A DNA stretch of 64,000 nucleotides from Psammoneis japonica (lineage: Eukaryota): positions 1 to 64,000 of the forward strand of contig QPGO01000166.1 of assembly GCA_008632985.1 (NCBI GenBank), given 5' to 3'. A program made the position numbers and the translations under genes. Shown here piece after piece: positions 19,201-58,025 of the stretch. Numbering within the stretch: position 1 is the stretch's first letter; every line of letters begins with the position of its first letter. The notes under the pieces were generated by a model. The model was not told where the DNA came from and ran no database searches. It saw only the letters and a program-made list of their open reading frames with translations.

Positions 19201-19420
19201 GTCTGCAACTGTGCCTCCTCTCTCTGTGGCAGTGCAACATTGGTGGCCCCTTCACAGTCTTCCTCCTCTGTGGAAGCTCCCAGCTTTCCTCATTTGCTTG
19301 GTCACCTTCACAACTCAGTCTCTCTCTCTCTCTCCTCCATTGTGGCATTTCTTTCTCCCTCTGGGTGTCGTGGCTCGAGGTCTGGTTTCTCGTGGCTCAT
19401 TGCACTGTCAACCAGAGAGA
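16215..19420. mobile_element. TpA/CpG-depleted block 1: degenerate repeat or transposon-derived DNA
   Basis: Only about 12 TA dinucleotides in about 3.2 kb by manual scan; TG/CA enriched; ORFs Tyr-free; abrupt return to normal composition at both ends. No TE family could be recognised. Confidence 0.6.
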
Positions 19421-19770
19421 GTACATCACTCCCATACGAGAGAGTCGAGAGCAACAGGCACAATCTACTGCGTGGTAAACGCAAAAAAGACTCTGTCGAA
19501 TTGGTCGCAGCTCTGAATCGTCGCCTCAAACAATGTCAAAGACAAAAAAAAATTGGTCGAGCAGCGCAGGAGAAAGACTACCGTAGTGTTAGACTATTCA
19601 GAAATAAGGATAACCAGTTCTTAACGCATTAATGCTTCATTCTGCAGTGTCTGTATCCTGGATAAACTCAACACCAACCGGCACTAATAGCGCAAGATCG
19701 TCGTACAACCAAAATCACCACTGCTGGTTCGTCTTGTTCAGACGCTTCTCAATATTGACGCATCTACCCA

Positions 19771-22326: not shown

Positions 22327-25300
22327 GAGGGGAGAATGTCGTTTCAAGGCTCGTGAAATGTTCTCCACTGAACTGACTTGACAGTAGCGATGCTGCTATC
22401 CAAAACTATTCTTTGCGACTTCAGACACAGCTCTCTTCTCTAGCGACGTACCGATAGAGAAAAGCAGCCGCAAGGGCAGTAAGCAGTACCAAGGCGTGAT
22501 GTGAAGTGTTGCTCAGAGCAAGGAGCAAGGACCGAGGACCGACAGCAAGGAGGGGAGGCGAGGAGGGAGGAGGAGCGAGAGTCGTCGTCCTTGATCGTCG
22601 TTCACATGGCTGGAAGTCATCAAAGACACATCAAAATTTCAAAAGCTGTCTGTAGAAGGCTGTAGTAGAGGGTCATTCGCGGTCATTCGACAATTTGGAC
22701 ACGAGTTTTTTGTCGACCGCACATCTGTACAGTACGTACGTACTGTACGTACGGTACGTATGATACGTACAATCGTCAACTTTTCCGTTGAGAGATCCGT
22801 TGAGATAACGGTTTCCTTTGAAAAATCGTGACAATCCTCCTCGGAAACACGCAACAACACGCCCGCGATTTGTGTGACAGCGCTTTACATGTCCGCGGCC
22901 AAGGACAATGCAAGGCCAACATTGCCTGCAAACAGCACACTGATGGGCTTTTCCTTTTCTCAGCCTTTGTTCAGGGCCTGTGTGCTGCGGCGGTGTGCGC
23001 TGCTGGAACAAACACCAAACAACACTTGTGGGTGCCAAGCACAAGGAGGAGCTTGGCTCCCTCCACCTTGAATTGGCTGCAATTGGCCAACCAAAGAAGA
23101 GTCCATTCATTGAACCATGCATGTTGGCAGGTGACTCTGGCATGGAGCAAACAGCTGTGTTGGTGGGTGGTGGTGGGTGGAGCCGTGCTGGGCACACCAG
23201 CAATGGCGGCGCGGGCCACCGTGCCCACCAGAGCTTGCTTCTCAGCCAAAAGAAAATGCAACCCTGTGGTCTTGAGAAAGTGAATTTGTTGGCTGAGTGT
23301 CATCTCAACACTCCTCAACACTGTGCTCAAGGTTGCAAGTGCAGCAGGGGAGAACCGCCCACACCGGCTCAAGCTTGAACAAAGCTGCTTTGGCGCTGTG
23401 ACCACAGAGCATCAAAGAAAAAGACCGCTGTCATGGAAGGCAAGACAGCAGAAAAAGCAAAAAAGCTGTGCCCAGAAACTAAGCTGAAAGTTGCTTGTGG
23501 CACTGACTTGCTGTGCACGCTTTTTGACAAGCTGGGTGGGCAGCAGAAAAAAGGAAGGCAGCACTTCTGCAAGGGCGGCATTGGGAACTGACTCCACAAT
23601 GGCCGTGCAAAGAAGAAGGGTCATCAGATCTCATGGTGTTCTGCAGCATTGCTGCTTGACAAAGAGGAGCCCAAAGTGGCAATGAGCAACAGGCTTGACA
23701 TCAACCTCAGCTCAAAAGGCACACAGCAACGCCACTTTTGTGCGCCAAAACATTGCTCATTGTCAACCCCAAAAATCTGCACAACAACCACACAAAAACC
23801 AAATGAAAACAACACTTCAATGAGGTTTGCTTGACAGCAGCAGCTGAGCAAGTGGTGCCAGCATGCTTGCCATCAATGACCAAGTTTCCACTGCACAGCC
23901 AGTGGCAGGTGTTTCAGTTGGGCAATGATTTGTCACAAGGTGCGCAGAAAACAATGGTGCCCACTCAACCAAGAGAGCAAAGTGCAAGAGCTTGACATGC
24001 CATTTGAGCCTGTCCTTGCTTGCAGTGGAAAGAAGCTAATTTCCTCCCATGTGAAGTCAGAGGATGCTGCAGCTGTGGCAAAACACTTGGTGGCTTCTCA
24101 AGGCAATGACCCTGTGGAAACTCCTGCGACAGTTGTGAGAAAGATGCGCACAATTTGCTGAGAACAAGTGACAGAACTGAGGTGCTCCTGTCCACATGCT
24201 GGGCTGAAAACAGGCAGCATTGTTCCCTTGTTGTGTTTCCCAAATCTGCACCTTCAGACATGACCATGAAAAAAAAACAAGAAGAGGCTGGCGCTGCACA
24301 TGTGCTCTGAGATGTCCTGCAATGAAACATGCAGTGGAATCTTGACATTCCTCATGAGTCAAGCCACTTGGCAACTTGGCTTTGTTTGGTTGAAGATGGT
24401 GCTTGCACTGTGCAACCTGCCATTCATTGCCTCGCAAACAAGCTGATGGCAATGGATGATGACAACAAGCTCCATGGACCATTGTCAGTGCACCAGACTG
24501 GCAGCTGGCAGCCATGATGGCATTTGCAAGAACTGCAAGCATCAAAGCTGCACCTTTCATTTGATGACGCAAGGTTTTGCAAGAAACCAGGTTGCTGCCA
24601 AAAGACAGAGTCTGTGATGGACTGAAATGCTTTGCAGGAGGAGAGCCATTTTGGATTTGATCAAGAGCTGGCAGTCTTGTGGACAAACAATGCAGAGTCT
24701 GAGGAGGGGCTCAACTTGTCTTGCAACCTTTTGCTGGAGCTCATTTGTGACAAGAAGGAGACAAAAAGGTGCCTTGACTTGTGCTTTGCTGGTGACTTGA
24801 CTGCATTTCTCATTGACAAGGTGTGGAGAGCAGGCGACTTTTGCTTGCCATTTTCACATGGACACAACATCCTGTGACAACTGACTGCCAAAGAATGATG
24901 GCAAAGCAAAAGGAGGTGGTGTGCTGGCACCATTCAATGGGTCCCAAACCAAAACACAGCATGGCAAAGTCAGCCAAAGTGATGACCAAAGTTGTGGACA
25001 TGCAAGCAACATTTGAAGAGCAGTGAGCAGCAACAATGGCAGTGCACTCAGTGCTTGTGTCAAGATTGACCCCAGTCTGTTGCTTCTGTGTTGTGATGTT
25101 GCTCAGTGCTGTGGCAACAAAGATTTGAAATGCACAGCTGGGTGAATCAAACACACTTGCATGAGACGGCCTTCCTCCCCATGAGCTGACAAACCATTTT
25201 GCATCAAGCTTGTCTCCCACTCAGATCTTTGCTTTGAACCAAGTGGAGTTTCTCAAGCACACAACACCACAATTTGATTGAACTCAAGTTGTTGCAGTCA

Positions 25301-26667
25301 TGGAGTGAAGCAGCAAACTCTGCCTGATTTGCTCCTGCAGAAGATGTCACAGGCAGCATGGTTTTGAGTTTTTTGTTGATTGCCCCCATGTGTCTTCAAA
25401 GTTTGAGGGGTGCACTGCCAACCCCAGATGACGTCATTCTTGTGCACTGGCACAAGCCTTGTCATGCAACACATTTGACCAGAAAGCATCAGACAGTGTG
25501 TGTTTGACAATCTGGTCCAGAATGAGTCCCCCGGGGCTTTTGCAGGAGGCAGCACTGCACAGAGTTTTGCACAGATTTGAAAGTTGGCCAGCACATGATG
25601 GACCATGGGAGAGAGTTCTTTGAGTCAGCACTTCTGACCAATCTCTCAAAGAAGCTTTGCTCTGGCATCAAGTGGGCCAGGCATGACTTTGGATCCAAAA
25701 GGACAGCTGCTGTCGGCAACAGACCTGCAGCACAAAACCATTGTGACATTGTCTCAACAACTGCAATGGATCTCTGAAATTGTGAATGGATGACAGTGCT
25801 GCACATGCATTGCAGCTTTTAGAGCAATCCCAGGAGGAGACAAAATCTTTCCTTTGTGCTTTGATGGCGCCCTGAGTGAGATGGGTTCAATGGGCACAAA
25901 TGCCACAAAGTCTTGTCCAGAGAGCAATCCTCAAACAAAAAATTGACCTTGATGAGCAAAGAAGAGGATGATGAGGCACTCAACTCTTGTTGCTCCAACT
26001 TGTCAATGTGCATGCCTTGTTGAAGCCTGTCCTTTTGCAGTGTGGCTGATGGAGGCCATTTTTCATTGGAGGGCTTGCAAACTTCTTAGAGAGTCATGCA
26101 CAGAGGCCATGGCAAACCAGAACAATGCTGGGGAGTGTGTTGTTGGCATTCAGTTGTTTCTGGCAAGTGACAAATTCCAGGGGGTTGCCAGGCTAGAATC
26201 AGGTTCAAGTGGCAATTGCACTGCCTGCAAGAAGAGAGCTGCAAGAAAAATGCCAAAATGAGACACAAGATTGTTGCTCTGAGCAATGGATCATCCTGTG
26301 TGTTCTGTGTGGTCTGTGTGCAAAAGTCACATCTGTTGGTGGAAAGTTGAAGTGTCGACATTGAGCAGCTCAGCTGCCTGCTCCTGGCAGCACACCACCT
26401 GCACTCCAAATGCCACCAACTCCAATGATGACTCAAGTGCTGCCTGCTCACCCTGGTGCACACACCCCCGCCACCACCACCCTCTTTGATCTTTGCAAAA
26501 TGAGCTTTGCCCAGATCCACAGTTGGCATCTGTTCATCCTCAGCTTGAACATTCAGTGAGTGCTTTTGCTGCACTTTTGTTTTCTTTGACACATGCCACA
26601 AACTCCAACAACTCAAACAGGAAAGGCCAGCATCACGCACACTCTTGAGTCTGCTGGAAAGAACAAA

Positions 26668-27254
26668 AATTGTGCTGCAAGCAGTCAGCAGCAAGCAGTG
26701 TCTCAATGACAGCAAAATGATGCAAGGCAGGTTCAGCCCACTCTTGGATTTCATCTTGCCTCTCTTTTCAACACACACAACAATGCACAAACCATGAATG
26801 ACAACATGGCAAGATGTGCCTTTGGCACTTCACATTTGTGTTAGACACAGCATCCATTGCGTGGAGCCATTTCAAACAAATTTTGCACTGCATTTTGTGC
26901 TGACATGTGTCCATGAAAAGAGAAGCAAGATGAAATCCAAGAATGTTGTGCTGCAAGCAGTCAGCAGCAAGAAGTGTCTCAATGACAGCAAAATGATGCA
27001 AGGCAGGTTTGGCCCATTCTTGGATTTCATCTTGCCTCAAAAATTGTGCTGCAAGCAGTCAGCAGCAAGCAGCGTCTCAATGACAGCCAAATGATCTTGC
27101 CTCTCTTTTCATGGACACATGTCAGCACAAAATGCAGTGCAAAATTTGTTTGAAATAGCTCAACACAATGGATGCTGTGTCCAACACAAATGTGAAGTGC
27201 CAAAGGCATCTTGCCATGTTGTCATTTGTGGTTTGTGCATTGTTGTGTGTGTTG
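26668..27254. repeat. Composite repeat: three direct copies of a gtgctgcaagcagtcagcagcaag... unit plus an approximately 160-bp inverted repeat (26769-26931 / 27094-27254)
   Basis: Direct alignment by eye; the ORF track shows PLALHICV..HSIHCVE.FQTNFALHFVLTCVHEKR on both strands. Confidence 0.9.
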
Positions 27255-30200
27255 TGCATGTGTGCTGCTGAAACCACTTGTGAGTTTTCCCTTTTTTTGG
27301 AGTCACATGCCTCCTGGCACTTGTCAATGCAGACTCCACTTGGGCTGATTGCCCCATGTGCCAATTTGTGTTTTGCGTCTGCCACATGGACAACAATTTG
27401 ACACAAAAACCATTGATGGATGAGTGCAGGCAATGTGGCAAAACACGGTCTCTCTCTCTCTCTCTCTCTCCTTCAAACGTCTTGCCAAGTTTTAAGTTTG
27501 AGACTTGCAAGTTCTAAAAGTGCCTTTTGTGCATTGAAAACAAGTTTCTGATGTGCGCGAATGTGCCAGAGCCTTTCAACAAAAACAAAAACACAGATCA
27601 CATGGTGGGCATGTGCAGCAATGCATGATGTGCACACACACACAAAGGCACTTGCACATGTCTGTGCATTTCCTGTTTTTGTCAGTGTTTGAGGCAGCAG
27701 TCAGAGAGGGGCCTCACTGACCAGTCATGTGCAGCAGGCATTGCTTGCTCTTTGTTGCCTCCTCTGGATCCTCTGAGGAACAGGAGGGGTGCACCACCAC
27801 AGAAGCAAAGGTCCAATGTGTTCCAGCCTCCTCACATGAGTGCACACACAAAAAAAGACATTTCCACAATTTTTGCACGGTTGCCAACTCACGATTGCTT
27901 TGTTGGGTGGAAAACAATGTCTTCGCTCATTTGCAAAAACCAACAAAACCCACCAAAGTGCACCAAAACAAGCAGTTGCTCTTCATTTCCCACTTTCATT
28001 GTGCCAAGAATTGTGTCACAACACAAGCATTGTTTGTCTCAGGAGCGAAGTTCTGTTTGTCCTTGTGAGCACTCAAGTCAACAAAGTCTTCCAGTCATTC
28101 ACACAGTTGTCCTCTGAGGACCTTCAATGCAACAAATCAGACAGTGAATTTTTTGTGTTGCACAAAAAGTGCTTTTGAACTGGGGACAAAAGTTCTCGTG
28201 CAGTGAGACATGTGGAAACAACTTTGCCGTGCATGGAATTCTCTGTGGGTTGCCACCTGTTTTTTGCACAAGTTGTCGCATTGGTGTGTGGTTGTTTTTG
28301 ACCACTTTCTGTGACTTTGCAGCTGCGCAAGCAGCCCCAACAACCAATTTGAAGTGGGCGCGGTGTGTGTCATGAAGGAAATGGTGAGCTGTGCACTGTG
28401 TGCCAAAATGGACCTGTTGCATTTAAAGGATTTTGAAGGTCTCAATGAACCACCCAAAAGTTGATGCACAAGGTCATCAAAAACAGATCTGTGTGACATG
28501 CAAACAACCACATGATGCAATTTGGATGCAGAGGATTCAATGGTGGCATTTGCATGCACTGAGTGCTTTTGTGATGGGGGTTGGAATGGCCCAAGAAGAG
28601 GGTGCAAAAACTTTGCACTTGAAAGTCACTGAGATCTCCTCAAGTCTGCAGCCATTGCAACAACAAACAAAAGAGAAATGGCACCTGCAGACCAAGTGAA
28701 ATGTGAAAGCTCCAATGGTGTCATTTTTGTTGCCACAAGGCAGGTGGAACAAAGAAAGCAGCCACTGTCATGTGTGCAGCCATGTCATCACTGTGTTGAG
28801 CAACGCTTCAGGAGTTTGAAGAAAATGAATGTTCCCCTGGAGTGTGAACAAGGCATGTTTGATTTTTTCAATGCTGGAGTTCAAGACAATTGTGCCCAAA
28901 AATGTGATTGTCAAACAAATCCATGAACCCATTGTTTTGCATGTCACCAAGCACTGGAGCATGTTGCCAGGCACAGATGCACGTGTTGCACAAGCCTGGT
29001 GCATGCTTGTGCTCATTTTGCAGCTGAGCAGATGTGCAAGTGGCTGTGGTTGTGTGCCAGCCATGCTGCAAAGCCAAAGCCTGCAACACCCCTCTCCCAA
29101 AGCTGTGCTGCCAAGTTGACAAAAGTTGTGAATGCAAAGCTGTGCATTTTGCAGCATTTGCCACCAAGCACTGCAACAAACTTGGGGCAAAACTTTAGAT
29201 TTGACAGTGAAGAAGTTTGCGCACCACATGTGAGCAAGCACACAACATTCACACCAACAGGCACTTCTCCTCAAAATGTGACCAGCTCAGGGTGTGTGTG
29301 AGTCACAGGGAATCATTTGGCACTTTGACCTGGTGAGGGCACACTCAGGTGTGTTGTGTTGGCCCACCTCTGTTGAGGTGCATGCTCTCTTGTCAGCATT
29401 TCTTTTTTTTTCATTTGTTCTCACCTTTGTCATTTGGGTTTCACGTGGATGTTGTCCCATGACCAAATCTTTTGATGTTTTGGATCTTGACTCAAGCGCA
29501 ACAATGGCTGCAACTGTGTGGCATTGTTTTGTTTAAATCCATGATGCAGCTGTGTTTGATTGTCACCAAAGACATTTCCGTTGAGGAATTTTTCAAAAAT
29601 GTCAACAAAAATTTTGCATTTGATGTGTTTTCACATTGGATGTTGACATGCTCAGTTGTCAGGGCAACAAATCCAACTGGTCTGTTGTGTGAAGTGACTT
29701 GCACCGCAATTTGTTTGTCCCTTCTGTGACACTTTCCCGTGCAAATTTTCTTCCTCTCAAGTTTTTCTTGCTTTTGCAAAGTCCAGGCAATGTCAACAGG
29801 AGGATGGGTTCCCACAAATCCACTTGGTCTGTTGCATCAAGCAACTTCCACCACAATTTTTTGTCCTTTCTGCAAGACTTCCACATGAATTTTACCCTGT
29901 GAACTTTTGCTTTCTTTGTTTTGACCAGGGTGAGATTTGTGTGCCCAACAGGCAGGCAAAGAACAGATGCACATGTTGTGGAAAAATCTCTCAAGCACCA
30001 TGATGACTCCCTTTTCACTTGACTCAGTCAGCTCAAAAATGGCAGCACAGAGGAACAAGCATTGTGCCCCTCTTCCAGTGATTCTGAAGAATCCACTGGT
30101 GATGAAAAAAGAGGCCCTTTCTTCCGACCAGTCACAGTGCAGGGAACACAGAAATGCCTCTGGTGGTGACTCTCTTTGCAGACCATGCACATGAGGCAGA

Positions 30201-33200
30201 AAAGACACTTGCATTTCTGTCACTCACACCTGCAGCCACAAACAATTGAAATGTTTTTGAAACTTGGGGGCACAATGGTGCAAAGCAGCGTGACCACAGC
30301 AAGTGCAGGCAAACACACAATGCAAAAACAACAAGGAGTCAGGGCAACTTTGGCTCAGAGACAGATCAATCCAAGTGAGCAGATGGCCAATGATGAAAAG
30401 GTTGGCAGAGACATCAAGGTGAGAGATCATGTCAAAGAAAAGGTGTTTGTGAGCACTGCACTCATGTTTGGCACAAAGCAATTGGACAAAACAGGGCGCT
30501 GCACAAAGACAAGTTTTGCTGCAAGTGTTGGCCTCGCTGGGGCATTGATGTTCAGCAAGATGCAAATCTGACACCAGCAGCTTTGCACCGTTTCCAATTG
30601 TGTGTGGGCATGAAAAGATGAAAGGGCAACTCTCAGCTCTCACAGGTGTTGTGAACCAGCTTGAGAACATTGCCAACAAATGGCTCATGGCAAAGAAGGT
30701 TGTTGCAAAGAAGTGAAAGTGTGCAAGATGACTCAAGTGCTGTGTGGCAAGCAACCAAAGCCCAGCAAAGATGTGTGCAGGAGATGATGCAAGATGCCAA
30801 GGAAAATGGCAGAGGATGGTCACCAAGAGCCAACAAGTTCTCCAAGGAGCCGGTTGTGGAGGTCAAATGAGATGTCAAAAGTGAGTGGCTTTTGTGCAGA
30901 ACAGTTGCAGCCAGCCATGGAAAGCAAGTGGGGGAAAGACTTGACAACTTGGATGATGCGGAAGACCACATGGCAAGCTGCACCAAGATCTGCAAGCTGG
31001 AGTTGACAGTGGTTTGGGAGATGATGACCCATGAGCAGAGATGCTTTCATTGTTCAACATGAAATTCCAAGGCAACTCTGCACCACAGAAGCTGTGCGCC
31101 AGATGGCAACTGTCAAATTGATCATTTTGTGTGTGCACAAACTCAACGAGTTTGGCCATGCTGGCTGGGTTGACAAGTTCTTGATTTGTGCCCATGGAGA
31201 TGTTTGCTGGAAGAAAAGGACACTCACTTGTTTTCAAAACACCCCAATTTGTCACAAATGGGGTGAATTCATGAGGAATCTGACTGATCTGTCAACAAAT
31301 GAATTTGCATGTGTGCACTCACACATGTTTTGTGCAGTCAGTCTGGTCATCTGCGGGTTGGAGGATTCTTAGATTTGGGTCCCTGTGACCCAGAAACAGC
31401 CTTGCGGTTGTCATCAATGACAATCTTTGCAGCTGCCTTTGCTGCTCATTGTTGAACTCAGCACACAAAGCACAGCAACAATGCTCCATCTGCTCAGGAA
31501 CCTGGGCAATGGTCAGCACACAGCAGCAGCCTTGTCAAAAAGCACCACTGTTGCTGCAGCAACAAAGCAGAGGGCTGCTCTCTGTGTTTGCCACTTCAGC
31601 ACCCTGAGAAAAAGGAGCTGTGCAGAAGAAAAGGTCAGCACCAGATGCACAAGCCATGCAACTCTTGCACTGATGAAAATGGTCCCCAACAACATGCAAG
31701 CTGAGTGTGCTGCACATCAGTGCTGGAGTGCATGAAGTGCAGCTGCTCTTCTTGAAAAAAAAACTCCAACAAAGTGTTGCTGCTGGACCAAAGAAAAACA
31801 TGTTCCCCTGTTTGTGTGCAGGCTGTTGGAGGGCAATGCCCCAACTGCACTCAAAGACAAGCTGCAAGACTTGGCCACCAAAGCAAATCAGATCTTCATG
31901 CAGTGTGCAGATGCCATGACAAAACAAAGCAAAGTCTTTCCCAGGAGGGCAGTGCTGCCACACAAGTGCTGCTCAAGGTGTTTTGCACAAAAGCCTGTGA
32001 AAATGAAGACTTGGTGGGAATGTGTCACAAGAGAGCCATTGAGCTGAGCAGCTGTTTGAAGAATTCTCCACCCTTGGTTGAAGATGGGGGTGGCCTGCAA
32101 GATGTGAGGACATGTTGGCAAGCTTGTTTGAGTTTGGTCTGCTGTGAGAAGCCAGCAGCACTGCACGGCTCCACAGGACTTTGACCCACTTGCTCACACA
32201 ACCTTCAACAAGTTTGTCTTATTTTGCAAATGAGTCAAGCCCCGCCAAAGGCAGGCTGCAAAAGGCGCCCAAGGACAAGAAGGCCTCCCTCTCTTCAGGG
32301 CACCTTGGGCTGTCAAAATTGTCCATGAGCTCAAACCCCACAAATTGTGGGGCTGGACAATCATGGAGCAGCATGCTCTCAGTGGTCATGTTTGCTGTGT
32401 GAGCCACAGCATGCCCTGCTGCTTGGGTGCTGTGCAGTGCACCACCCACCATGCTGGCCTGGGTGGGTTCACACTCTGGACACAAAGCAGAAAAAGCTTG
32501 TCTGCACATCAAGAAAAAGAGTTCTGAGTGCAGAGAGTGCCAGCACACAACAGGGCAGCTGATGCTTGTCAAACAGGAGCAAAAAACAAAATGTGGGGCT
32601 GGCTGTCTTGTGTGGGCCCTGCCAAAGGAGTTGCATGCACAAGGGAGACCAGCAGCATGCTGTGCACACAAGATGGTGTGCACTGATGGACACAATGTGC
32701 AGTGCACTGCAGATGGCAACCCATCATCAGCAAGATGCATCTGGCCTGCTTTGCAGCCCTTGTGTCCTGGGTGTCCTGGGGGGGGGGCACCACCATGCAA
32801 GGCACACACAGCACTGGCAACTGGCAGATGCTAGCATGACATGGCCTGTGTGAGATGCAACCTTCTTCACAAAGGTGAGTGTCAGGCACAGACACACCTG
32901 TGCTGCCCAAGCTTGTGCAGCTTGTGAGTGCACATTGGCATGGTTGCTTGCCAGCTGTGAGCAAACCCACATCACTGGATTGTGCACTCAGCTGCTGCCC
33001 CAAAAAGCTCTGCTGAGGGAATGAAGCTTTTCAGTTGTGAGTGGAGAAGCTTGCTCAAATGTGCATGATGTGGCTGCACACAGCTTGTGTGGCTGAAGAA
33101 TGTGTTTCAGCAAAACATGTTTTCTCAGAAGCAGTCTTTTGACTCTGTCATTGGCACTGATCTTCACAGCTGCCTTTTAGGCTCATTGCCAAATTTGGCA

Positions 33201-34153
33201 CATGATGAGGAAATGGCTGCTGCAAAGCAAGCTGGACACAGGCAGTTTTTGAGCACATTGCATTTTTTGTTCATTTCTTCCATCATTGCTTGTTTTAGTG
33301 GAAACAGGCGCTGCTCTGCATTTTGAGATGCTCTGGCAAAAAGAGATGTGAAGTCCTGGTGCACAAGAACTTTCCAAAGATGCACCACAAAAGATGTTTC
33401 AAAAGCCCAGCTTGCTGCAATTTTGTGCACACTCCTCCCTCTGCACCTTGTCCCCTCTCTTGCCACCACCCCAGTGTGGTGCAGTGGGTCAACAGACACA
33501 AAGCTTGCCTTGTTGCTTCAAACATTCAAGCTTCTGAGTTGCTTGCCAGAGAGAAAACAAAGCTTTTTCCTCAATGTTCCACAACAACACAAGGAGGCCA
33601 AGGGCTGTCTAATGTGTGGTTGACAGATCTGACACAGCAGCAGCAGCAGCAGCAGCCTTGTGAAGATCTGGCATTTCAGCTGGTTTCAGCACAAGGTGCT
33701 GATTGTGAGATGTGCTGTGCTTGTCAGATGGGGCAGCAAACTTGCCCCCCCATGGTGCACACCACATGTGGCAAAATCCTGCTTGTTGTTTCATGAAACC
33801 TTTCTCTGCATTTTGAGTGCAATGTTTTTTGTGGTGGGGTGTTGCCTGATGGCAAGCTGCAAGGGAAAAAATGGCAAGACTCAGCAAACTTCTTCTGAGA
33901 ACCACACTTCCAAAAAGTTGCCTTCACCCAGCCACTCTCTCACTGGGTCATGTTCTGGAGCATGAGGCATCATGTGCACTTTTGAGTGTGCCACATTGGA
34001 AAAGCAGCTTTGCAAGTCTTGAGAAGCCACCAACACCTTCCCATGGGCCACCCAAGAGAGAGAGAGAGAGAGAGAGTTTGCCAATTTTGTTTGTTTGGGG
34101 TCACGGTTGAAGGGAATCAAGCCCGCCAGCAACAGATCAACCAAAGAGGACAA

Positions 34154-35030
34154 ATTTAGCGCTGAAATGACTCAGTGGAAAAAAACATTTTTGACACACA
34201 CAAAATGTGTGTCCACACAAAAACATCATGCACAAGCACCCGGATGCACATTTTTGAAAGTGTCACAACCCAGAGGCCATGTGGGATCACACCAGCGACA
34301 CACATGTGACAAAAAACCCGGATGCACATTTTGTCAAATGTGTGGGACATTTTGAAAAATGTGCACCCTGGCAAAATTTTGCACATGTAGAATTTGCACT
34401 GGAAGTCTCGCAGATGAGGACTGGCCAAACGCACTTGTCAAGTCCAGGTTTTGCACCCCAAAATGTGCTGAAACTGGCTGTGTGTTTGCCAGGCAGATGC
34501 AGCACTGATCTGTGACATGACAGCCTCCCTCCAACACTGCGCACCGTCTTCACACTGACACAAGCTTCAACAACTGTGCCGCACAAATCCAATGCCCACA
34601 GCCAGATCCTGTGCTGCGCTCTTGAGATCCTCCTGTGTGAGTGACTAGACAGCATGCACACTGTCACTTGCTTGAGCAGGTGACAGCTGCAAATGCATGC
34701 AACAGTGAGCCAAATGGCTGTCACTTGTTTCCAGTTGCTTCTGTGCAGTTGCTGGCTCATCATGAGTGCATTGCAACATTTTGGTGTGATGCCACACAGA
34801 ATTTCCTGGTGCATTTCTACACAACACTGGTGCACTTTTGTGCATTCAGTGCAAAATGAGCTCCAAAAACTGAAAAATGCCCCCCATGCATTCAGCCAGT
34901 CCTTGCTTGCAGACATGTTTTACACACCCGGATGCACATTTTGAAAGCTGTGTCACACATAAAAAGTTGTGTTGCAAGGTGTGCAAAAAATGCGCGAGCT
35001 CACCACATGGAAAAAATGCACATGTGGCTG
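34154..35030. repeat. MITE-like or subterminal repeat region with recurring cccggatgcacatttt motif
   Basis: Motif at about 34239, 34317 and 34927, with tgtcaca/aaaatgtg submotifs; ends not defined. Confidence 0.5.
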
Positions 35031-38000
35031 CACAGCTGGCAGTGCAATGGTTGCAGGGGCTTGAGTCACAGGAGCTTGTGTCCCTTCCCATGCCTGGCTT
35101 TTCCTGCAGAGCTGCAAGACAAAGATCACCTTCCCAGCTGCTGTGTGGCTGTGTGTGCCAACAGAGGAAACAACATGTGCAGCTGAGCACAGCCACAAAG
35201 GCAAGCCACAGTTGGAAAATGCAAACAAGAGTTGATGTTGCTGGCTGAATTTTGGGCTTGTGTCAAAACTGCATGAGAAGAGACTTGGAGTGCCAAGATC
35301 TCTGGGGCAGAGTCTCAAACCTTTTGTTGCTCAGTGCAGCAGCACATGCCTGCAGTGCTGCCAAAAGCACCACAGAGTGCTGGGGCTGTCAAGGCCAAGC
35401 AAAAAACTGCAAGAGACAACACACATGTCATGTGGGGGCAGAGGGTGGCAGAGGCAATCTGAGAAGGGAAAAAGGGCTGCTGAGGGGAGCAACCAAGAAT
35501 CTTGCTGTGTGTTGCAATCACCAGGTTGAGGGCAAATGAAGATCACAGGGCTTGGCAGGCCTTTTTGTGGCTGGCATCACAACAGGCTGGCAAGTTTGTG
35601 TGCTGTGAGCAGGTTGTGTTGCAGTTCTCAGCACTTTTTTTACTTTTCTCATGCTTGATCTGATGTGTCTGCCAACATGGGCTCTCTGTGAGCCATTGGA
35701 GGGTGTGGGATGCAAGAGGTGGGCAAAACAGGCAGTGCCAGCTGAGCTTGTTTGCCTCAGAAGTTTTTGCTTTTCTCAAGCTGCAGATCAACCTGAGCTC
35801 CTGTTTGGGTGCTTTTTGAAATTGCCAAACACACTCAGGAGATGCTGAGCCCAGCAGAAGTGCCGCTGGCAAGAAAGGAGGCCTGCAGCAAGAAGAAGGT
35901 TGTGTCGCACCATGCCATCTCTTTTGACTTCTGCCAAATTGTTTCCACATGGCAGCTCTGATGTTCCAGTTGGTTTGCATTGTTGAGTGATTTGTGTCAA
36001 AAAATCTGATGTGCTGGCAGCACAGGAAAAAGAAGACAAGCCCACCAGCCACTTGTCAAGATTTTTGTCTGTGGGCTGTGTGCGAAAGTGTGCCCCCCCC
36101 CCCCCCTCTGAGCAAAGGCAATTTGCAAAAAGAAGGTGAAAACCAGCAAGAACAGTGAAGCTTCAAGAAAAAAAGCTCTGCATCAAAAATCTGGGGCAGA
36201 AACAACAGAGCATTTTGACCAGTGTGCACAACTTGTTGTGCATTGAGAAAAGTGCCACGCATCTCTTTCCTCTGCCCTTGCTCCACAACCCAGGCAGGCA
36301 AAACAAGCACTGGCTTCAACAAGAGACAAGTGGCTGGCTGGGCGACACTTTCATTCACAAGGCCCAAAGGCTCTCTAAAAGCCACAATCTGTGAGAACAC
36401 CTGCAACTTTGTCAGATGATGTGAGCTGCAACACATGACTTGCCTTGAGTTGCTGAAAATGCCCAGAGTTTGGGCAATTCATGAAAGCAAAAAAAAACTG
36501 TGGGACATCTCCAATGAGCACCAGCCATTGTGCTTGACAGCACTTTGGGTGGGGGGGGTGGGCTGCCACATCCAACTGAAAGATGGGGCTGAGCTGTGTC
36601 ATGGCTGTTTGGCCCCACAAGGTTCTCAGGGTTTGTGTGCAGACCCTGAAAAATGAGGCCCAATGGGCATGCAATGTGGGCACTGTCAAATGGGCAAATT
36701 GATTGGAGTGGGCAGCTCTTTTGTTTGTCACTCCCAAAAAGGACCAGACAGCACAGCTCCTTTGTTTGTCATTTCCAAAAAGGGCCAGACAGCACAGCTT
36801 GTCAATGGTTTTTACAAGCTGAGCAAAGTGATGAAGTGAGTGCCAAGTGTCGTCTGACCCCACATTTGCAGCACAATTTTGTCTTGGAAAAAGCACAAGG
36901 TGTGGTTGTTGCTGATGGGCTCATGTGTGCATGTCTCAGGAGGAAACATTGGGTCCATTCCAGGATTTTGTGTGTGTGCTCATGTGCAGGCAAACAGACA
37001 ACCTTCAAATTTTGATTGGGTGCACACAAAATGCAAAAAACTCAATGCTGTTGAGCACTTGCACATCTGCGTTTTGACAAACCATTTGAGGAGGAGCATG
37101 ACATCACACCCAAATGGCAACTTTGAGCAGCAATGTTGTGGGGCAGTTGACACTGGCATCCTTTTGCAACAGCAAAAAGCTTGGCATTGCCCAGCCAAGT
37201 TGCACAATGATGGAAACAGAATTGCCAGCCATTGTGGAGGCACTGAAGGAGCTCAGGTTCACTCATCTTGGGCAGCAGACAGTTGTGGATTCTTGTCATG
37301 AAAACCTCACACACAAAGCACCCAACACCACCAAACTTGTCATGTGTGCTGGTGGCTGACATGTGCAAAAGTGTGTGGGCCCAAATCATGACATGTCAAT
37401 CAAAGATGACCATCACAATTTGGTTGCTGATGCACCAAGTTGCCTCAATCTCAGTTTGTGCTGGAAACAGCAAATGATCCAAAGGCCCTGGAAATGCCAG
37501 AGAAGTGCACCCTCTGCATGAAGGTTTCCTGGCAGAAGTGAGAAAGATGCGTCAACAACCCCCACCAGCTGTGAGAAAATTCAAGCCAAACAGCAAAGGG
37601 CAAGTGCCTGCCACAAAAGCCTGCTGCATGGGCTTTTCATGAGGTGGCTCACTGAAAAAAAGCAGGCAAAAGACAAAGTCATTGTCCCAGCATTGCCACA
37701 AAAGAAGCAGATGGCTGGCCTGGCTGGCATCATTTTCAGTGGTGCCATCCTGGAGATGCTTGCACAGAAACATCTGTTGCCCCCAACATCTCCACTGGTG
37801 CAGTGTGTGAGCTGCAGCAAGATCTGTGTGCTCCAAGCAAAAAGCACTCCAGAAGAGCCAAAAGACAAAATCTCAAATGGAGGGAGTTGGCAGCAAAGAG
37901 GCAGCTCTGAAGTTGTCCTGTGGGAGAGACCCAGTGCATGGGCATGACACCAGGGGGGCACACCATCCAGCAAAAAGAAAAAGAAACCACTGCATTTGTG

Positions 38001-39559
38001 GGTGGTCAGGATGGTTGGTCTGGCAGCAACTGGGTGGCCAAAAACTGCCACAAAGTGTTGGTGCAAAAAGCACTGACATTGCTCATCTGATGTCATCAAG
38101 CAAGCCTGATCATGCAGGTGTCCATGGCTGAGAAAGGTTGTCTTCCACAGAAAATGGCTGTGGACTTAAAAAGAAACTGGGAGCACCAAATGTGCAACCC
38201 ACGCACAAGCTTCACAGTGGAGCATGCACACCAGATGGATTGGGAGTGTGCGAAGCAATCATTTTCAATCTGGTGTGTGGAGCTGGACAAGGACAAGAAC
38301 CCACAAAGCAACAGCATGCTCTGGTCATGTTTGCCATGCAGGCCATGGCCCACACTGCCACTGCTTGAGCAAGCCCAGCAAAGAGCTGGTGTTTGGCAAA
38401 GATGTCAGCATGTTCTTGAGTGTTGCCAGCTGTGCTGGCTGGAAGCACACACTCAGGAGAGAAGCAAAAGCTTGCTTGCACAAACAACAAGAGAGAGAAA
38501 ATTCCAAGCACAGAGAGGAAAGCCAATGTGCCACAGGGCACCAGCTGGCACTTGTCTGACAGGGACAAAGACAGAAAGTGGTGCTGAGTTTCTCATGCAG
38601 ACCCTGCCATTCATGTGCACACATGTGGTGGTGTGGCGGTGTGCTGATCGATGCATTGCACAATGACCCACAGCAGCAGATGGCACTGTGAGCCACACTC
38701 TTTGTCATGGGATGGAAAATTTGAGTCCCCCCCATGATGATGCCATGCATGTGGAAGAAATCCTGCTTGCTTCGCTGGATTTTTTTCATGATGGCAGGTC
38801 AAACACACCACAGAGTGGCATGTCTCTGTGCAGAGTGTGAGCAGCAACACATTTTGGGTGCCCACATTGGAGAGCCCAGCTCTTTGCCAAGACTGCCCTG
38901 GTGCTGTGTCCAAAAACAATCTCAGGGGAAGAGTCTCCAATCTTGTTGCAGCTGGCACAGCTGCACAAGTCAGCAGCACTGCCAAAGGTGCTGCACTGGG
39001 GCAGCCAGCTGTGCTGAGTGCCAAGCAAAATGCAAAAGACAGCACATGCATCATGCAGAGCCAGAGGCCAGTGGAGGCAATCTGAGAAGGGAAAAAGGGC
39101 TGCTGTTGGCAGCAACCAGGAGTCTTGCTTTTTGCTCCAATGTGGCAGGCCCACTTGCAGTTGGTGTGATGGCAGGTCATGAACAAATCTGCAAGCCAAG
39201 TGTTGGTCAAACTGCAACTCTTCTCAACCCTCTTTTCTTCCAGGAGAGGAGAACAAGAGAGGCAAGTTGGCTTGGTGTCATGCTTGTCACTCTCTGAAAG
39301 CCGCAATCCATGAGAACACCTGGGACTTTGTCAGATGTGAACCACAGCTGCAGCAGCTGGGAAACAGGCCAATCGTCCTTCGGCCAGGCCCACAGCAGGC
39401 CCACAGCACAGGCCCACCTGTTGGGGGGTGGGGTGTCACGTGTCACACACACTCTCTGCTCTCTAGAGTGGCCAGAGCTGGCTGGAGTAGAGAGTCTGCC
39501 GCACACACTGCACATGTGGCCCCAAACTGTTGACTGTTTCTAATTGCTCTACCTCACAG

Positions 39560-41669
39560 AGGGAGTTGCACTCTCAAGCGTTGTTGTCACCCACTGCTGC
39601 AGCTGCAACGGCAGGCTCAGCAGCCCCTCCATCGGCACCCACACCAGACTGGTGACACTCCTCCAGCTGAGCATCAATCCTGGCTTGAAACTTGGCTGTT
39701 TCCTTGCGACATTGCTCCAACTCCTCACTGCTCATGTCATTGAGATCAGCATCTGCATCTTCAACAAAGACAGGTGAGGAGGGGACAAAGAAGCCCAGGC
39801 AGTTCACAACACATTTTGCTGGACCCTCAATCCCTTCAGTGCCCTTGGTCGTCTTTGTGTTTGGGATGGGACCATGCTGCTCCATCCATGCATGTGGAGA
39901 CTTGTGCCCTCTGGCGGCATTTTCCAGAGGCCCATGAAGAAGGGGTGGCAAGCACAGTTGCTCAGGTCCATGACATGCAAGACACATGGGACATCAGATC
40001 TGTGTTTCAACATGCACTTGCAGCAATTGTGCGAAGAAAGATGCAGCTTGTTGTGGATGTCTGCAATGGACAAGGCATCCCAGCAGTGGTCACCCCTGTT
40101 TCGTCAAACAAGAATGAACACTGCACAAGTGGGAGATCAAATCAATGAGCTGGCGCAAAGCAATGGAGACTTGCTCGTCACACAGGAGGCACTTGCTCAA
40201 CTCAATCACAATGTCAGCAATCCAGACTTGTCGCTTGCAGCATTCCAAATTGGCCAAGTGCGTGGTCACAGATGCTTTGATGCGCTCGCACCTCGCCTCG
40301 ACACTTTCGAAAGCTTCTGTGGCCCGCTCCATTTCATCCCGGGCAGCGCACAGTGAGCACTCAACGTTGATCACCTCCTTGAAATTTTTGTCTCATGACT
40401 CCTCACTGTTCACTTTGACTGCTTCCCACCTGATCTTGTTGATCTCAAGGTTGTCGATGTTCTGCACCAGGTTGTTCCTTCCAATGCACATCAGTGCACT
40501 GGGGCAAGGGTCCTTGGCAATCTCCTTGACAAGGTCAGTGCAAATGGGAACCCGAGCCCCATCTTTCAGCATCAAGACCTTCTTGCACTCGTTGGATGCC
40601 TCGACCCTGCTCACGTCAAGATGGTCCCCTTTCTTCTGCAGATGCTTCAAAGCCAACTTGTCCTTGGTCATGCCAAGTGCTGACACGGCGGACGACACCA
40701 TGCCCCTTGTCACATCAGCAACAACAACTCTGTCCTCTGCACCATTGAGGCCTGTGGAGGAGCCACCTCCTGATGTTCTTTGTTCCAGCATTGGCGGATC
40801 CAGCGTGTTGGCGGCGGAATCAGGCACCGAAGCAACATCGGAGAATGAAAGCAACGCGGCTCCGTCAACAGAGGCGGCAAGTCATGACTGAGAAAGGAAG
40901 GATGAGGTGCCAACAGAAGTGCCGGCGCGTCATGACAGAAAGAGGAAGGATGAGGGGCTGAGCTGGTGGGTTGCTGCTGGTGAGCTCATGGCGTTGGTTT
41001 TTGTCCTTTTGGAGCACTCAACGTTGATCACCTCCTTGAAATTTTTGTCACATGACTCCTCACTGTTCGCTTTGACTGCTTCCCACCTGATCTTGTTGAT
41101 CTCAAGGTCGTCGATGTTCTGCACCAGGTTGTTCCTTCCAATGCACATCAGTGCACTGGGGCGAGGGTCCTTGGCAATCTCCTTGACAAGGTCAGTGCAA
41201 ATGGGGACCCGAGCCCCATCTTTCAGCATCAAGACCTTCTCGCACTCATTGGATGCCTCAATCCTGCTCACGTCAAGATGATCCCCTTTCTTCTGCAGAT
41301 GCTTCAAAGCCAACTTGTCCTTGGTCATGCCGAGTGCTGACACGGCGGGCGACACCGCGCCCCTTGTCACATCAGCAACAACAACTCTGTCCTCTGCACC
41401 ATTGAGGCCTGTGGAGGAGCCACCTCCTGATGTTCTTTGTTCCAGCATTGGCGGATCCAGCGTGTTGGCGGTGGAATCAGGCACCGAAGCGACATCGGAG
41501 AATGAAAGCGACGCGGCTCCGTCAACAGAGGCGGCAAGTCGTGGCTGAGAAAGGAAGGATGAGGCACCAACAGAAGTGCCGGCGCATCATGACAGAAAGA
41601 GGAAGGATGAGGGGCTGAGCTGGTGGGTTGCTGCTGGTGAGCTCATGGCGTTGGTTTTTGTCCTTTTGT
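39560..41669 (-). pseudogene. TpA-edited gene relic of unknown function with its 5' part tandemly duplicated
   Basis: ORFs 40930..41484, 40393..40854, 40090..40374 and 39574..39987 read as a natural globular/coiled-coil protein but have no Tyr, with His/Cys at plausible Tyr sites (LKHLQKKGDHLD, VPICTDL, EESCDKNF). Confidence 0.6.
40355..41669. repeat. Tandem duplication, 2 x 657 bp
   Basis: gagcactcaacgttgatc at 40355 and 41012; copies differ at about 22 positions. Confidence 0.95.
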
Positions 41670-41797
41670 TGGAGCACATGGTGGCAGTGTGCAGTGTTTG
41701 TATTCAGTGATCGGCGGCATCGCTCGAGGAGAAAATGAGCCGCGCGAGAATTTTGGGAGAGACATGATGCCATGGTGTGACGGCCCGCCGTCGTACA

Positions 41798-42112
41798 GTA
41801 GAAGGCTCGTAGGCACATACCCGTGGGCACATACATGGTGGGCACTGCCCACCGTCGTACTCGTAGAAGGCTCGTAGGCACATACCATGGTGGCCAGCGC
41901 CCACCGGTGTAGAAGGCTCGTAGGCACATACCACGGTGGGCCAGGGCCCACCGTCGTAGAAGGCTCGTAGGAACATACCATGGTGAGCCAGCGCCCACAA
42001 TCATGAAATGTCCTGCCCACCGACGTAGCACCTCCGTACGGGTGTACTGAAAAGAGCGTCTGCCCACCAAAGCGTCCACCCCTGCCCACCAAAGCGTCCA
42101 CCCCTGCCCACG
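41798..42112. repeat. Four 24-bp repeats (gtagaaggctcgtaggcacatacc) separated by hairpin-forming spacers, followed by 22-bp tandem repeats
   Basis: Cores at 41798, 41863, 41909 and 41956; tgcccaccaaagcgtccacccc twice from 42061. Confidence 0.9.
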
Positions 42113-53814: not shown

Positions 53815-54199
53815 TCTTCTTCTTTTGAGATCCACAGTTGCAAAAACGCGAGGAGTCTCTGTTGCGACATTCACCTGGGGAACGTTGAACGAATAATGTA
53901 CCGGTATCATAGGGTCTTTTTTTTCTTTTTGAAGGTCAAATGGCTTGAACAAAGCTTTGACAAAGAAACTTGGCAGTTATATTATTACTCTCTACTTAGA
54001 GTTTGCGTTGGCCTGCACCAGAGATGTATAACATCTATATATTAACATATGTGGTACAAAGTAACTTGGGTTCAAAACTGCAATTTTGAACCCAAGCAGT
54101 GTTTCCCGAATGTGCATTTTGGTCGGACCAAATTGGCATTTTGGTCGAACCAAAACACTTTTGTCGACCAAATTGCCAGACCGACCAAATCGGTCTGAG

Positions 54200-57993: not shown

Positions 57994-58025
57994 CCTCTCT
58001 GCAGCTCTCCACTCTCCAAGGCACA

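What the first reader, a model, noticed from the sequence alone, without database searches (positions are those of the whole stretch)
22890..41700. Candidate repeat-targeted TpA to TpG/CpA hypermutation system (reverse-RIP-like)
Seen: over about 18.8 kb I count only about 33 TA dinucleotides, while flanking genes and intergenic DNA have TA every few tens of bases. TG/CA is greatly enriched, the edges are sharp, and the same state recurs at 16.2-19.4 kb and 54.1-56.8 kb, in repeat-like or relic DNA. Established: CpG loss is expected from deamination of 5mC, and diatoms methylate transposon CpG via DNMT5. That chemistry cannot remove TpA, and fungal RIP does the opposite (CpA to TpA). Inference: a region-targeted A to G process at TpA acts on both strands. 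Candidates are a DNA adenine deaminase (TadA-derived editors prefer TA) or Pol-eta-type error-prone resynthesis at WA motifs, as in somatic hypermutation. It would remove Tyr codons (catalytic Tyr of recombinases and HUH proteins, RT YxDD), TATA boxes, GTAAG donors, CTAAC branch points and TA insertion sites, so it could work as genome defence. I do not know of a description of this, but I cannot search the literature.
Basis: partly seen in the sequence, partly recalled or inferred. Interest (0 to 1): 0.95.

Follow-up and report, generated by a model that had tools for sequence, protein, structure and literature searches.

The report
TpA-erasing hypermutation blocks in diatom-like genome
Three sharply bounded stretches of dead DNA (a retroelement relic, a broken lipase gene copy and unidentifiable sequence) have had nearly every TA, and in the older parts every CG, turned into TG or CA; this kind of targeted DNA editing was reported in 2026 for one unrelated alga and now appears in a diatom-like genome.

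Summary
Block 22887-41700 holds 33 TA where 778 are expected, with 2194 TG and 2208 CA. The same state occurs at 16299-19421 and 54063-56771, and edges are sharp within 200 bp. The cause is mutation, not native composition. In a lipase pseudogene inside block 3, 0 of 9 conserved Tyr survive (4 became Cys TGY, 5 became His CAY), against 104 of 133 other conserved residues kept. Diverged repeat copies differ by adjacent TG/CA double changes. Contigs of a public run reproduce the sequence. TA loss comes before CpG loss: two sub-blocks have no or almost no TA but keep 59-81% of CG. Surviving TA are mostly YTAR, and the excess products are YTGY/RCAR, so the edited A lies in 5'-TAY-3'. AA is not depleted, which argues against Pol eta. 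The host is a stramenopile, probably a diatom. TpA>TpG/CpA hypermutation of integrated viral DNA is already described for Bigelowiella natans (bioRxiv 10.64898/2026.01.13.699255), so this is a new member of a known kind. The enzyme is inferred only.

The parts
16299..19421 (.). Block 1: nearly free of both TA and CG; content unidentified
   Evidence: TA 11 (129 expected) and CG 20 (178 expected). No credible Pfam family in 41 ORFs of 60 aa or more; two hits at E 0.02-0.03, far below cut-off.
22887..39463 (.). Block 2a: old state, nearly free of both TA and CG; repeat-rich relic DNA
   Evidence: TA 29 (686 expected), CG 106 (947 expected), TG 1972, CA 1974. Run X1 holds other copies 90-99% alike, with k-mer depth up to 199 against about 50.
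37102..37356 (+). Relic of a reverse-transcriptase RNase H domain (LTR retroelement)
   Evidence: Pfam RT_RNaseH, E 9.8e-5, below the gathering score. Found again when stops were read as X.
35298..35518 (+). Old diverged repeat copy A, paired with 38919-39141
   Evidence: 72% identity. 13 discordant TG/CA steps against 25 concordant ones in 223 columns.
38919..39141 (+). Old diverged repeat copy B
   Evidence: As for copy A.
39551..41700 (.). Block 2b: young state, no TA but 59% of CG kept
   Evidence: TA 0 (89 expected) and CG 72 (123 expected).
40355..41677 (+). Tandem duplication (40355-41017 and 41012-41677) inside block 2b
   Evidence: 96% identity. 22 substitutions, of which 21 are transitions, 14 CG-versus-TG/CA steps, 1 TG/CA double, and no TA in either copy. 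Its minus-strand ORF has no homologue among 1.84 billion representatives.
54063..56771 (.). Block 3: young state, nearly free of TA with 81% of CG kept
   Evidence: TA 4 (112 expected) and CG 125 (155 expected).
54038..55285 (-). Class-3 lipase pseudogene, truncated at its 3' end at the block edge and degraded after the GHSLGG motif
   Evidence: Pfam Lipase_3, E 8e-6. 30 homologues, up to 60% identity. Tyr 2 of 478 residues against 2.7-4.1% in 14 homologues. 0 of 9 conserved Tyr kept.

Best explanation
These are segments of dead DNA in a stramenopile, probably diatom, genome: a retroelement relic, a truncated copy of a lipase gene and sequence degraded beyond recognition. Two mutational processes, both confined to the segments, have rewritten them where they lie. 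The first is fast. It turns the A of a TpA step into G on either strand, so TA becomes TG or CA, and it runs to near saturation. It works best when the A is followed by a pyrimidine (5'-TAY-3' becomes TGY). The second is slower. It is the ordinary decay of methylated CpG to TpG/CpA. Shown here: the direction of change (TA was ancestral), that both strands are hit, the confinement, that copies were converted independently in place, the order (TA first, CG later) and the sequence context. Inferred: the first process is enzymatic deamination of adenine in DNA (A to hypoxanthine, read as G). The enzyme's preference recalls tRNA adenosine deaminases (TadA/ADAT2, natural context U33-A34-N35; recalled, not from a call). 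It would be directed to the same silenced chromatin that receives cytosine methylation, and would act as a genome defence. It is the same kind of process as the TpA hypermutation measured in Bigelowiella natans.
For: Depletion and mass balance: TA 33 of 778 expected, TG 2194 against CA 2208, pyrimidine-purine steps 245 against 241 per kb. Converting every TA and CG of the flanks in silico gives CA/TG o/e of 1.95, against 1.86/1.96 observed.

Polarity: in the lipase pseudogene, 0 of 9 conserved Tyr columns are kept (4 Cys TGY, 5 His CAY), against 104 of 133 other conserved columns (Fisher p 3e-6). 12 of the 38 changed columns can be explained by TA>TG/CA.

In-place, independent conversion: repeat pair 35298/38919 has 13 discordant TG/CA steps against 25 concordant. 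Of the 40 differences to other copies that displayed (440 more were not shown), 12 positions form six adjacent TG/CA doubles and 11 are CG-versus-TG/CA changes.

Order: blocks 2b and 3 keep 0-4% of TA but 59-81% of CG. The tandem duplication has no TA in either copy, and 14 of its 22 differences are at CpG.

Context: 32 of 48 surviving TA are YTAR, against 293 of 1631 in the flanks (p 4.5e-13). Survival is 0.003 for RTAY, 0.029 for mixed contexts and 0.174 for YTAR. A model that adds the two strands fits, with rate-times-time of 0.70, 2.41, 1.04 and 3.37 for a 3' neighbour of A, C, G and T (likelihood-ratio chi-square 69, 3 df). The excess products are YTGY/RCAR: the TG share of the excess is 0.85 in Y..Y and 0.27 in R..R, in the same direction in the young blocks (72 against 28). 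GTGC is enriched 3.3-fold.

Read support: X1 contigs cover 30 of 30 bins, and 135 of the 270 laid are at least 99% alike, among them exact pieces of 393-1059 nt.

Precedent: in B. natans, 231 of 302 new mutations fell in two viral insertions. Apart from one of the 211 in the giant-virus region, they were A>G/T>C, and all of these fell on TpA.
Against: No enzyme, methylation map or new-mutation data exist for this genome, and no whole genome is held, so targeting and mechanism are inferred.

The only run that holds the stretch may be the sample from which the window was assembled, and its library type is not on record, so read support is not independent.

The flanks are mostly coding DNA and are an imperfect stand-in for the ancestral sequence. 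The two-process model does not reproduce AT o/e 0.72, GC 1.39 or GA/TC 0.83 in the old blocks. Mass balance fails for some tetranucleotides, such as the TTGA class.

TG/CA doubles cannot tell an ancestral TA from an ancestral CG.

CpG-derived changes seem to share the YTGY/RCAR bias, which plain 5mC deamination does not predict.

The Tyr codons themselves do not settle the 3'-Y rule: only two are informative, and they point in opposite directions.

Block 3 is a host-type gene fragment, not obviously foreign or repeated.
Confidence: 0.75

Rival explanations
1. Assembly or base-calling artefact. Heavily modified DNA (5mC, perhaps modified A or T) is systematically misread as TG/CA in a long-read assembly, and the real sequence still has TA and CG.
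For: Both depleted dinucleotides are palindromic, like typical modification sites. The only run holding the stretch may be the source sample, and its library type is not on record.
Against: Logan unitigs of run X1 (k-mer depth about 35-60, longest 315 kb) reproduce the sequence exactly over pieces of 393-1059 nt and cover 30 of 30 bins, which error-prone reads would not give. The blocks also carry frameshifts, truncation and repeat divergence typical of real decay. Other copies in the run are TA-poor too, but resolved differently as TG or CA.
Confidence: 0.03
2. Native composition or selection. The blocks come from a foreign element or virus whose genome avoids TA and CG (for example to escape nucleases), or TA was removed by selection.
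For: The edges are sharp, like those of insertions. Most of the content has no homologue.
Against: Conserved Tyr of a lipase, including those beside the catalytic GHSLGG, were replaced 9 of 9 by Cys or His, so TA was ancestral and the change was not selected for function. Copies of one repeat resolve the same site as TG in one and CA in the other. Pyrimidine-purine steps are conserved at the flank level. In B. natans the loss is seen as new mutations.
Confidence: 0.03
3. RNA-level editing. ADAR-like A-to-I hyperediting of double-stranded retroelement RNA (which favours a 5' U), followed by reverse transcription, produces edited new copies.
For: A retroelement RNase H relic lies in block 2. The ADAR preference for a 5' U is cited in the preprint discussion.
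Against: One RNA strand would give only TA>TG on the sense strand. Instead Tyr>Cys (4) and Tyr>His (5) are mixed along one gene, and TG 2194 is about equal to CA 2208. A non-retroelement gene fragment with 1.5 kb of upstream DNA is affected up to a sharp edge. Copies lying in place diverged by TG/CA doubles.
Confidence: 0.05
4. Error-prone repair synthesis. Pol-eta-type WA>WG errors, or other repair tied to methylated chromatin, cause the change rather than a deaminase.
For: A>G at WA is the known Pol-eta signature (recalled knowledge). The blocks also show CpG decay, so repair of T:G mismatches is probably frequent there.
Against: AA/TT is not depleted: o/e is 1.10-1.30 in the blocks against 1.12 in the flanks, so the target is TA and not WA. 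Loss reaches 96-100% with a clear 3'-pyrimidine rule. Transversions are rare in young copies (1 of 22).
Confidence: 0.1

Closest known systems
TpA-specific hypermutation of integrated giant-virus and virophage DNA in Bigelowiella natans (Mettrop et al., bioRxiv 10.64898/2026.01.13.699255; I read the abstract, Results and Discussion, and searched the text)
   Same: A:T>G:C transitions are restricted to TpA and give TpG/CpA on both strands. They are confined to discrete regions of non-host or silenced DNA. The long-term footprint is windows depleted in TpA and enriched in CpA+TpG, and low-TpA CDS are enriched in RT and DDE domains. An adenine deaminase is proposed.
   Different: The host is a different supergroup lineage (a stramenopile, probably a diatom, against a rhizarian). 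Here the loss is saturated (TA o/e 0.00-0.06, against Rho 0.45 for their giant-virus region). It is coupled to near-total CpG loss, and the word CpG does not occur in the preprint. A host-type gene fragment is a target. No rate is measured here.
Repeat-induced point mutation (RIP) of fungi
   Same: It is a segment-confined, saturating transition hypermutation of duplicated or selfish DNA. It has sharp edges and a dinucleotide signature, and it destroys coding capacity.
   Different: The chemistry and direction are opposite: RIP turns C:G into T:A, mainly CpA>TpA, making DNA AT-rich and TpA-rich (abstract of PMC2621366 in the listing). Here TpA is destroyed and G+C is unchanged. Dependence on duplication and on a sexual stage is not shown here.
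Decay of methylated CpG in DNMT5-methylated transposons of diatoms
   Same: CpG becomes TpG/CpA in silenced repeats. Passages of PMC12344493 state that Phaeodactylum methylation is limited to transposons. Here 14 of the 22 differences between tandem copies are at CpG.
   Different: It explains only the CG half of the signature and cannot remove TpA. TA loss occurs first, and also where most CG survives.
TadA/ADAT2-type adenosine deaminases and the adenine base editors derived from them
   Same: The preferred context has a T (U) 5' of the edited A, with a pyrimidine favoured on the 3' side. This recalls U33-A34 of tRNA and the UAC of tRNA-Arg (recalled knowledge, not from a call). The preprint names an ADAT2-like candidate.
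   Different: No such gene could be examined, because no genome is held. Natural DNA adenine deamination by these enzymes is known from only a few reports cited in the preprint.

Membership tests
TpA-targeted hypermutation of silenced or foreign DNA (Bigelowiella type) | Changes are A:T>G:C transitions at TpA, giving TpG and CpA | tested here: met
   9 of 9 conserved Tyr became Cys (TGY) or His (CAY). TA 33 of 778 expected, with TG and CA doubled and pyrimidine-purine steps conserved.
TpA-targeted hypermutation of silenced or foreign DNA (Bigelowiella type) | Confined to discrete regions while the rest of the genome is normal | tested here: met
   Three blocks with edges sharp within 200 bp, separated by normal genes with TA o/e 0.44-0.86.
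TpA-targeted hypermutation of silenced or foreign DNA (Bigelowiella type) | Targets are of viral or transposon origin | tested here: inconclusive
   There is one RT RNase H relic. Block 3 is a host-type lipase fragment. The rest has no homologues.
TpA-targeted hypermutation of silenced or foreign DNA (Bigelowiella type) | Raised rate of new mutations measured in mutation-accumulation lines, active in only some lines | not testable with these tools
   No resequencing data are available. Only one study holds the stretch.
Fungal RIP | C:G>T:A transitions (CpA>TpA) that enrich TpA and A+T | tested here: not met
   TpA is erased and G+C is 0.49 against 0.476 in the flanks.
Fungal RIP | Triggered by sequence duplication | tested here: inconclusive
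   Block 2 has other copies in run X1 (88 contigs 90-95% alike and 47 contigs 95-99% alike). The truncated lipase copy suggests a duplicate, but the parent was not seen.
Methylated-CpG decay | CpG>TpG/CpA transitions confined to silenced DNA | tested here: met
   CG o/e is 0.10-0.11 in the old blocks against 1.01 in the flanks. There are 14 CG-versus-TG/CA steps among the 22 differences of the tandem duplication. Methylation itself was not testable.
ADAR-type RNA hyperediting fixed by reverse transcription | A>G on one strand only (the RNA strand) | tested here: not met
   4 Tyr>Cys and 5 Tyr>His are interleaved in one gene. TG 2194 against CA 2208.
Pol-eta WA>WG error-prone synthesis | Both AA and TA are targets | tested here: not met
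   AA/TT o/e is 1.10-1.30 in the blocks against 1.12 in the flanks.
TadA/ADAT2-like DNA adenine deaminase | A CDA-fold deaminase gene is present and required | not testable with these tools
   No genome is held. Only the TAY context fits.

The most novel reading that the evidence does not exclude
A TpA-directed DNA adenine-editing genome defence is ancient and widespread, at least across stramenopiles and rhizarians. A tRNA-adenosine-deaminase-like enzyme carries it out and is recruited to the same silenced chromatin as DNMT5 methylation. In diatoms it runs to saturation and hits any silenced segment, including duplicated host gene fragments. The shared YTGY/RCAR bias of the CG-derived changes leaves open that one deaminase acts on both A (in TAY) and C (in YCG).
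Probability: 0.4. Interest if true: 0.9.

Novelty: new member of a known kind. Interest (0 to 1): 0.72.

Why it matters
The only description I found of TpA>TpG/CpA hypermutation is a 2026 preprint on one chlorarachniophyte. Searches with diatom terms found no report of it in stramenopiles (text searches of two diatom papers).

A second, saturated instance in a diatom-like genome would show that the process is not a quirk of one species. It points to an old eukaryotic genome defence, based on A-to-G editing, that mirrors fungal RIP and APOBEC editing.

It also adds testable detail: the TAY context, the order (TA loss before CpG decay) and targets beyond viruses. Some diatoms can be transformed and have methylation mutants, so candidate deaminases and the targeting signal could be tested directly.

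In practice, such blocks mislead gene finders, because with only TGA left as a stop codon all six frames hold long open reading frames. They also hide degraded transposons from homology searches.

Tried and rejected
- The whole genome was requested and none is held, so no genome-wide scan or deaminase search was possible.
I replaced it with 143 of the 177 stop-to-stop ORFs of 70 aa or more (those of about 77 aa or more), which gave only RT_RNaseH and a weak DUF7633 hit. A shorter X read-through of 34501-39902 again gave only RT_RNaseH.
- Of 59 ORFs scanned for blocks 1 and 3 and the flanks, none within the blocks gave a credible family (three hits at E 0.02-0.03, far below cut-off); a flank ORF gave DUF4168.
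- ORF 55833-56609 (P0002) has no homologue. The tandem-repeat ORF 40933-41586 (minus strand) has 0 hits among 1.84 billion representatives.
- Earlier findings of this scan: nothing for this genome or for the search words.
- Sequencing runs: no RNA holder is listed, and only one study holds the stretch.
- I first asked whether the window might itself be Bigelowiella. That is rejected. The best named NMD3 relatives are Triparma (66%), Scytosiphon (60%) and Saprolegnia (56%), and the nearest atlas cluster is mostly Bacillariophyta.
- Tyr codons could not decide between the 5'-R and 3'-Y context models, because only 2 are informative and they disagree. The decision rests on tetranucleotide excess.
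- The simple two-process simulation does not explain the AT, GC and GA/TC shifts of the old blocks. A weaker A>G at ApC without a 5' T is hinted at by 3 of the 4 non-TpA A:T>G:C changes in the lipase, but the numbers are too small to claim it.
Full report
**Observation.** In 1-kb bins, TA falls from 28-60 per kb in the flanks to 0-6 per kb between 23 and 41 kb. CG falls to 1-15 per kb over most of that span, and TG and CA double.

| Block | Coordinates | TA observed / expected | CG observed / expected |
|---|---|---|---|
| 1 | 16299-19421 | 11 / 129 | 20 / 178 |
| 2 (whole) | 22887-41700 | 33 / 778 | 179 / 1075 |
| 2a | 22887-39463 | 29 / 686 | 106 / 947 |
| 2b | 39551-41700 | 0 / 89 | 72 / 123 |
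| 3 | 54063-56771 | 4 / 112 | 125 / 155 |

All counts are, and expectations use the flank densities (41.4 TA/kb, 57.1 CG/kb). The Poisson probability of 33 or fewer TA against 778 expected is about 4e-280. Block 2 holds 2194 TG and 2208 CA. In 200-bp bins the edges are single-step. G+C is unchanged (0.49 against 0.476). The summed density of the four pyrimidine-purine steps is the same inside and outside (245 against 241 per kb). That is what transitions within those steps predict. Converting every TA and CG of the flanks in silico gives CA/TG o/e of 1.95, against 1.86/1.96 observed. Two sub-regions, 2b and 3, have lost TA but keep 59% and 81% of the expected CG, so the two depletions are separable.

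**Host and content.** The flanks carry ordinary eukaryotic genes with few introns: OBG, SDR, mRNA cap methyltransferase, amino-acid transporter, NMD3, an ataxin-10 homologue and papain. The best named NMD3 relatives are Triparma (66%), Scytosiphon (60%) and Saprolegnia (56%). The nearest atlas cluster for the ataxin-10 homologue is mostly Bacillariophyta. The host is therefore an ochrophyte stramenopile, most likely a diatom, and not Bigelowiella.

Inside the blocks almost nothing is recognisable. Of 143 ORFs scanned in block 2, only a reverse-transcriptase RNase H fragment at 37102-37356 scores, apart from a weak DUF7633 hit. Block 1 gives no credible family. Block 3 holds a class-3 lipase pseudogene.

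**Polarity.** The lipase pseudogene (P0001) has 30 homologues at up to 60% identity. It contains 2 Tyr in 478 residues (0.4%), against 2.7-4.1% in 14 homologues. Its Cys (5.2%) and His (4.8%) are raised. There are 142 alignment columns in which at least 60% of at least 10 homologues agree. Of these, 104 are kept in the window. None of the 9 Tyr columns is kept: 4 are now Cys (TGT/TGC) and 5 are His (CAT/CAC). Of the other 133 columns, 104 are kept (Fisher p 3e-6). The changes include the two Tyr just before the catalytic GHSLGG (YKLY is now HKLH).

Two Thr>Ala changes across codon borders and one Ile>Met also fit TA>TG. In total, 12 of the 38 changes can be explained by TA>TG/CA and 2 by CG>TG/CA. 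TA was therefore ancestral, and both strands were hit within one gene, in interleaved order. The copy is cut off at the block edge and loses similarity after the active-site motif.

**Conversion in place.** The diverged repeat pair 35298-35518 / 38919-39141 (72% identity) shows 13 aligned steps that are TG in one copy and CA in the other, against 25 concordant ones. 26 of its 39 transitions lie in such doubles. This is close to what is expected if each copy resolved ancestral TA and CG independently.

Contigs of the public run X1 that are 90-99% like block 2 differ from it by 381 transitions and 99 transversions. Of the 40 differences displayed (440 more were not shown), 12 positions form six adjacent TG/CA doubles, 11 are CG-versus-TG/CA changes, and 3 positions give a TA in the other copy.

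By contrast, the young tandem duplication 40355-41017 / 41012-41677 has no TA in either copy and only one double. It has 22 substitutions, 21 of them transitions, with 14 CG-versus-TG/CA steps. There, TA loss came before the duplication and CpG decay continued after it. From the survival figures in blocks 2b and 3, the TA process is roughly ten times faster than CpG decay in the same DNA. This assumes both began together, which is an inference.

**Read support.** Only one study holds the stretch. Its contigs (k-mer depth about 35-60, longest 315 kb) cover 30 of 30 bins of 22300-42299. Of the 270 contigs laid, 135 are at least 99% alike, 47 are 95-99% alike and 88 are 90-95% alike. Exact pieces include 25635-26693. 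The run may be the assembly's own sample and its library type is not on record, so this argues against a long-read base-calling artefact but is not independent confirmation.

**Sequence context.** The 48 surviving TA are not random. 32 are YTAR, against 293 of 1631 in the flanks (p 4.5e-13). Survival is 0.003 for RTAY, 0.029 for YTAY/RTAR and 0.174 for YTAR. A model in which the two strands add, with a rate set by the base 3' of the edited A, fits well. The fitted rate-times-time values are A 0.70, C 2.41, G 1.04 and T 3.37 (likelihood-ratio chi-square 69, 3 df).

By symmetry, survival alone cannot separate a 3'-Y rule from a 5'-R rule. The direction of the products does separate them. The excess is YTGY and its complement RCAR: the TG share of the excess is 0.85 in Y..Y contexts and 0.27 in R..R contexts. 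The young blocks show the same direction, 72 against 28. NTGC is the most enriched class, with GTGC at 3.3-fold. So the edited A sits in 5'-TAY-3'. AA/TT is not depleted, which argues against a WA-type polymerase signature. A T on the 5' side with a pyrimidine favoured on the 3' side recalls the natural U33-A34-N35 context of tRNA adenosine deaminases. This comparison is recalled knowledge, not a tool result.

**Unexplained residue.** The old blocks also show AT o/e 0.72-0.74, GC 1.32-1.39 and GA/TC 0.83-0.88. The young blocks are near flank values for GA/TC (1.13-1.15) and intermediate for AT (0.85-0.91) and GC (1.09-1.17). The two-process simulation does not reproduce these shifts. CG-derived changes appear to share the YTGY/RCAR bias. 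Either a weaker, broader activity exists (for example A>G at ApC) or the ancestral composition differed. I could not decide between these.

**Literature.** A full-text search found a bioRxiv preprint, 10.64898/2026.01.13.699255. I read its abstract, Results and Discussion and searched its text. In Bigelowiella natans mutation-accumulation lines, 231 of 302 nuclear mutations fell in two integrated viral regions. Apart from one of the 211 in the giant-virus region, they were A>G/T>C, and all of these fell on TpA, and only in some lines. The authors also report 124 genomic clusters of windows poor in TpA and rich in CpA+TpG, low-TpA CDS enriched in RT and DDE domains, and an ADAT2-like candidate. 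The preprint does not contain the words CpG or diatom. The words 'context', 'trinucleotide' and 'flanking' do not occur in its main text.

Further searches found no report of TpA loss in diatoms or other stramenopiles. Text searches of Hoguin et al. 2023 and Maumus et al. 2009 also found nothing. Passages of PMC12344493 state that Phaeodactylum methylation is limited to transposons, which fits the CpG half of the signature.

**Verdict.** The phenomenon is a real, segment-confined TpA>TpG/CpA conversion running to saturation, together with CpG decay. It is no longer categorically new. It is a second, independent instance in a distant lineage of a process described in 2026. The details added here are saturation, the order relative to CpG loss, the TAY context, and a host-gene fragment as a target. 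The enzyme, the targeting signal and the defence role remain inferred.

Noticed in passing
window 54066-54095 and 58459-58486: The same 25-28 nt near-perfect hairpin (stem GGGTTCAAAA..TTTTGAACCC) occurs twice. One copy sits exactly at the left edge of block 3, the other 4.4 kb away in normal DNA. There are 4 matches on the two strands against 0 in 100 shuffles. It may be a terminator-like element or the end of a small mobile element.
   Followed up: partly
window 22727-22775 and 41861-41998: Both edges of block 2 abut TA- and CG-rich short repeats. On the left is a (GTAC/TACG)-like run. On the right is a 47-nt unit repeated 3 times, which gives repeated PWYVPTSLL-like peptides in flank ORFs. 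It is unknown whether these mark insertion borders.
   Followed up: no
window 16299-19421 and 22887-39463: The old blocks show further shifts that TA and CG conversion does not explain: AT o/e 0.72-0.74, GC 1.32-1.39 and GA/TC 0.83-0.88, against 0.92, 1.02 and 1.16 in the flanks. In the young blocks GA/TC is unshifted, and AT and GC are shifted less.
   Followed up: partly
window 6933-7005 (-): tRNA-Arg (anticodon CCG), the only Rfam or ARAGORN hit in the window.
   Followed up: no
window 12758-13837 and 13898-14818 (-): The NMD3 gene is split into two ORFs by a gap of about 60 nt, probably a short intron. The other flank genes are mostly single long ORFs, so the genome is compact and intron-poor.
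   Followed up: no
window 39464-39550: Four of the 33 surviving TA of block 2 cluster within 87 bp, in CTAG, GTAG, CTAA and CTAC contexts. The cluster lies at the junction between the CG-free and the CG-retaining parts and may mark a border between two elements.
   Followed up: no
window 58018-58171 and 36713-36799: Tandem repeats: a 51-nt unit repeated 3 times in normal DNA, and a 41-nt unit repeated 2.1 times inside block 2a.
   Followed up: no
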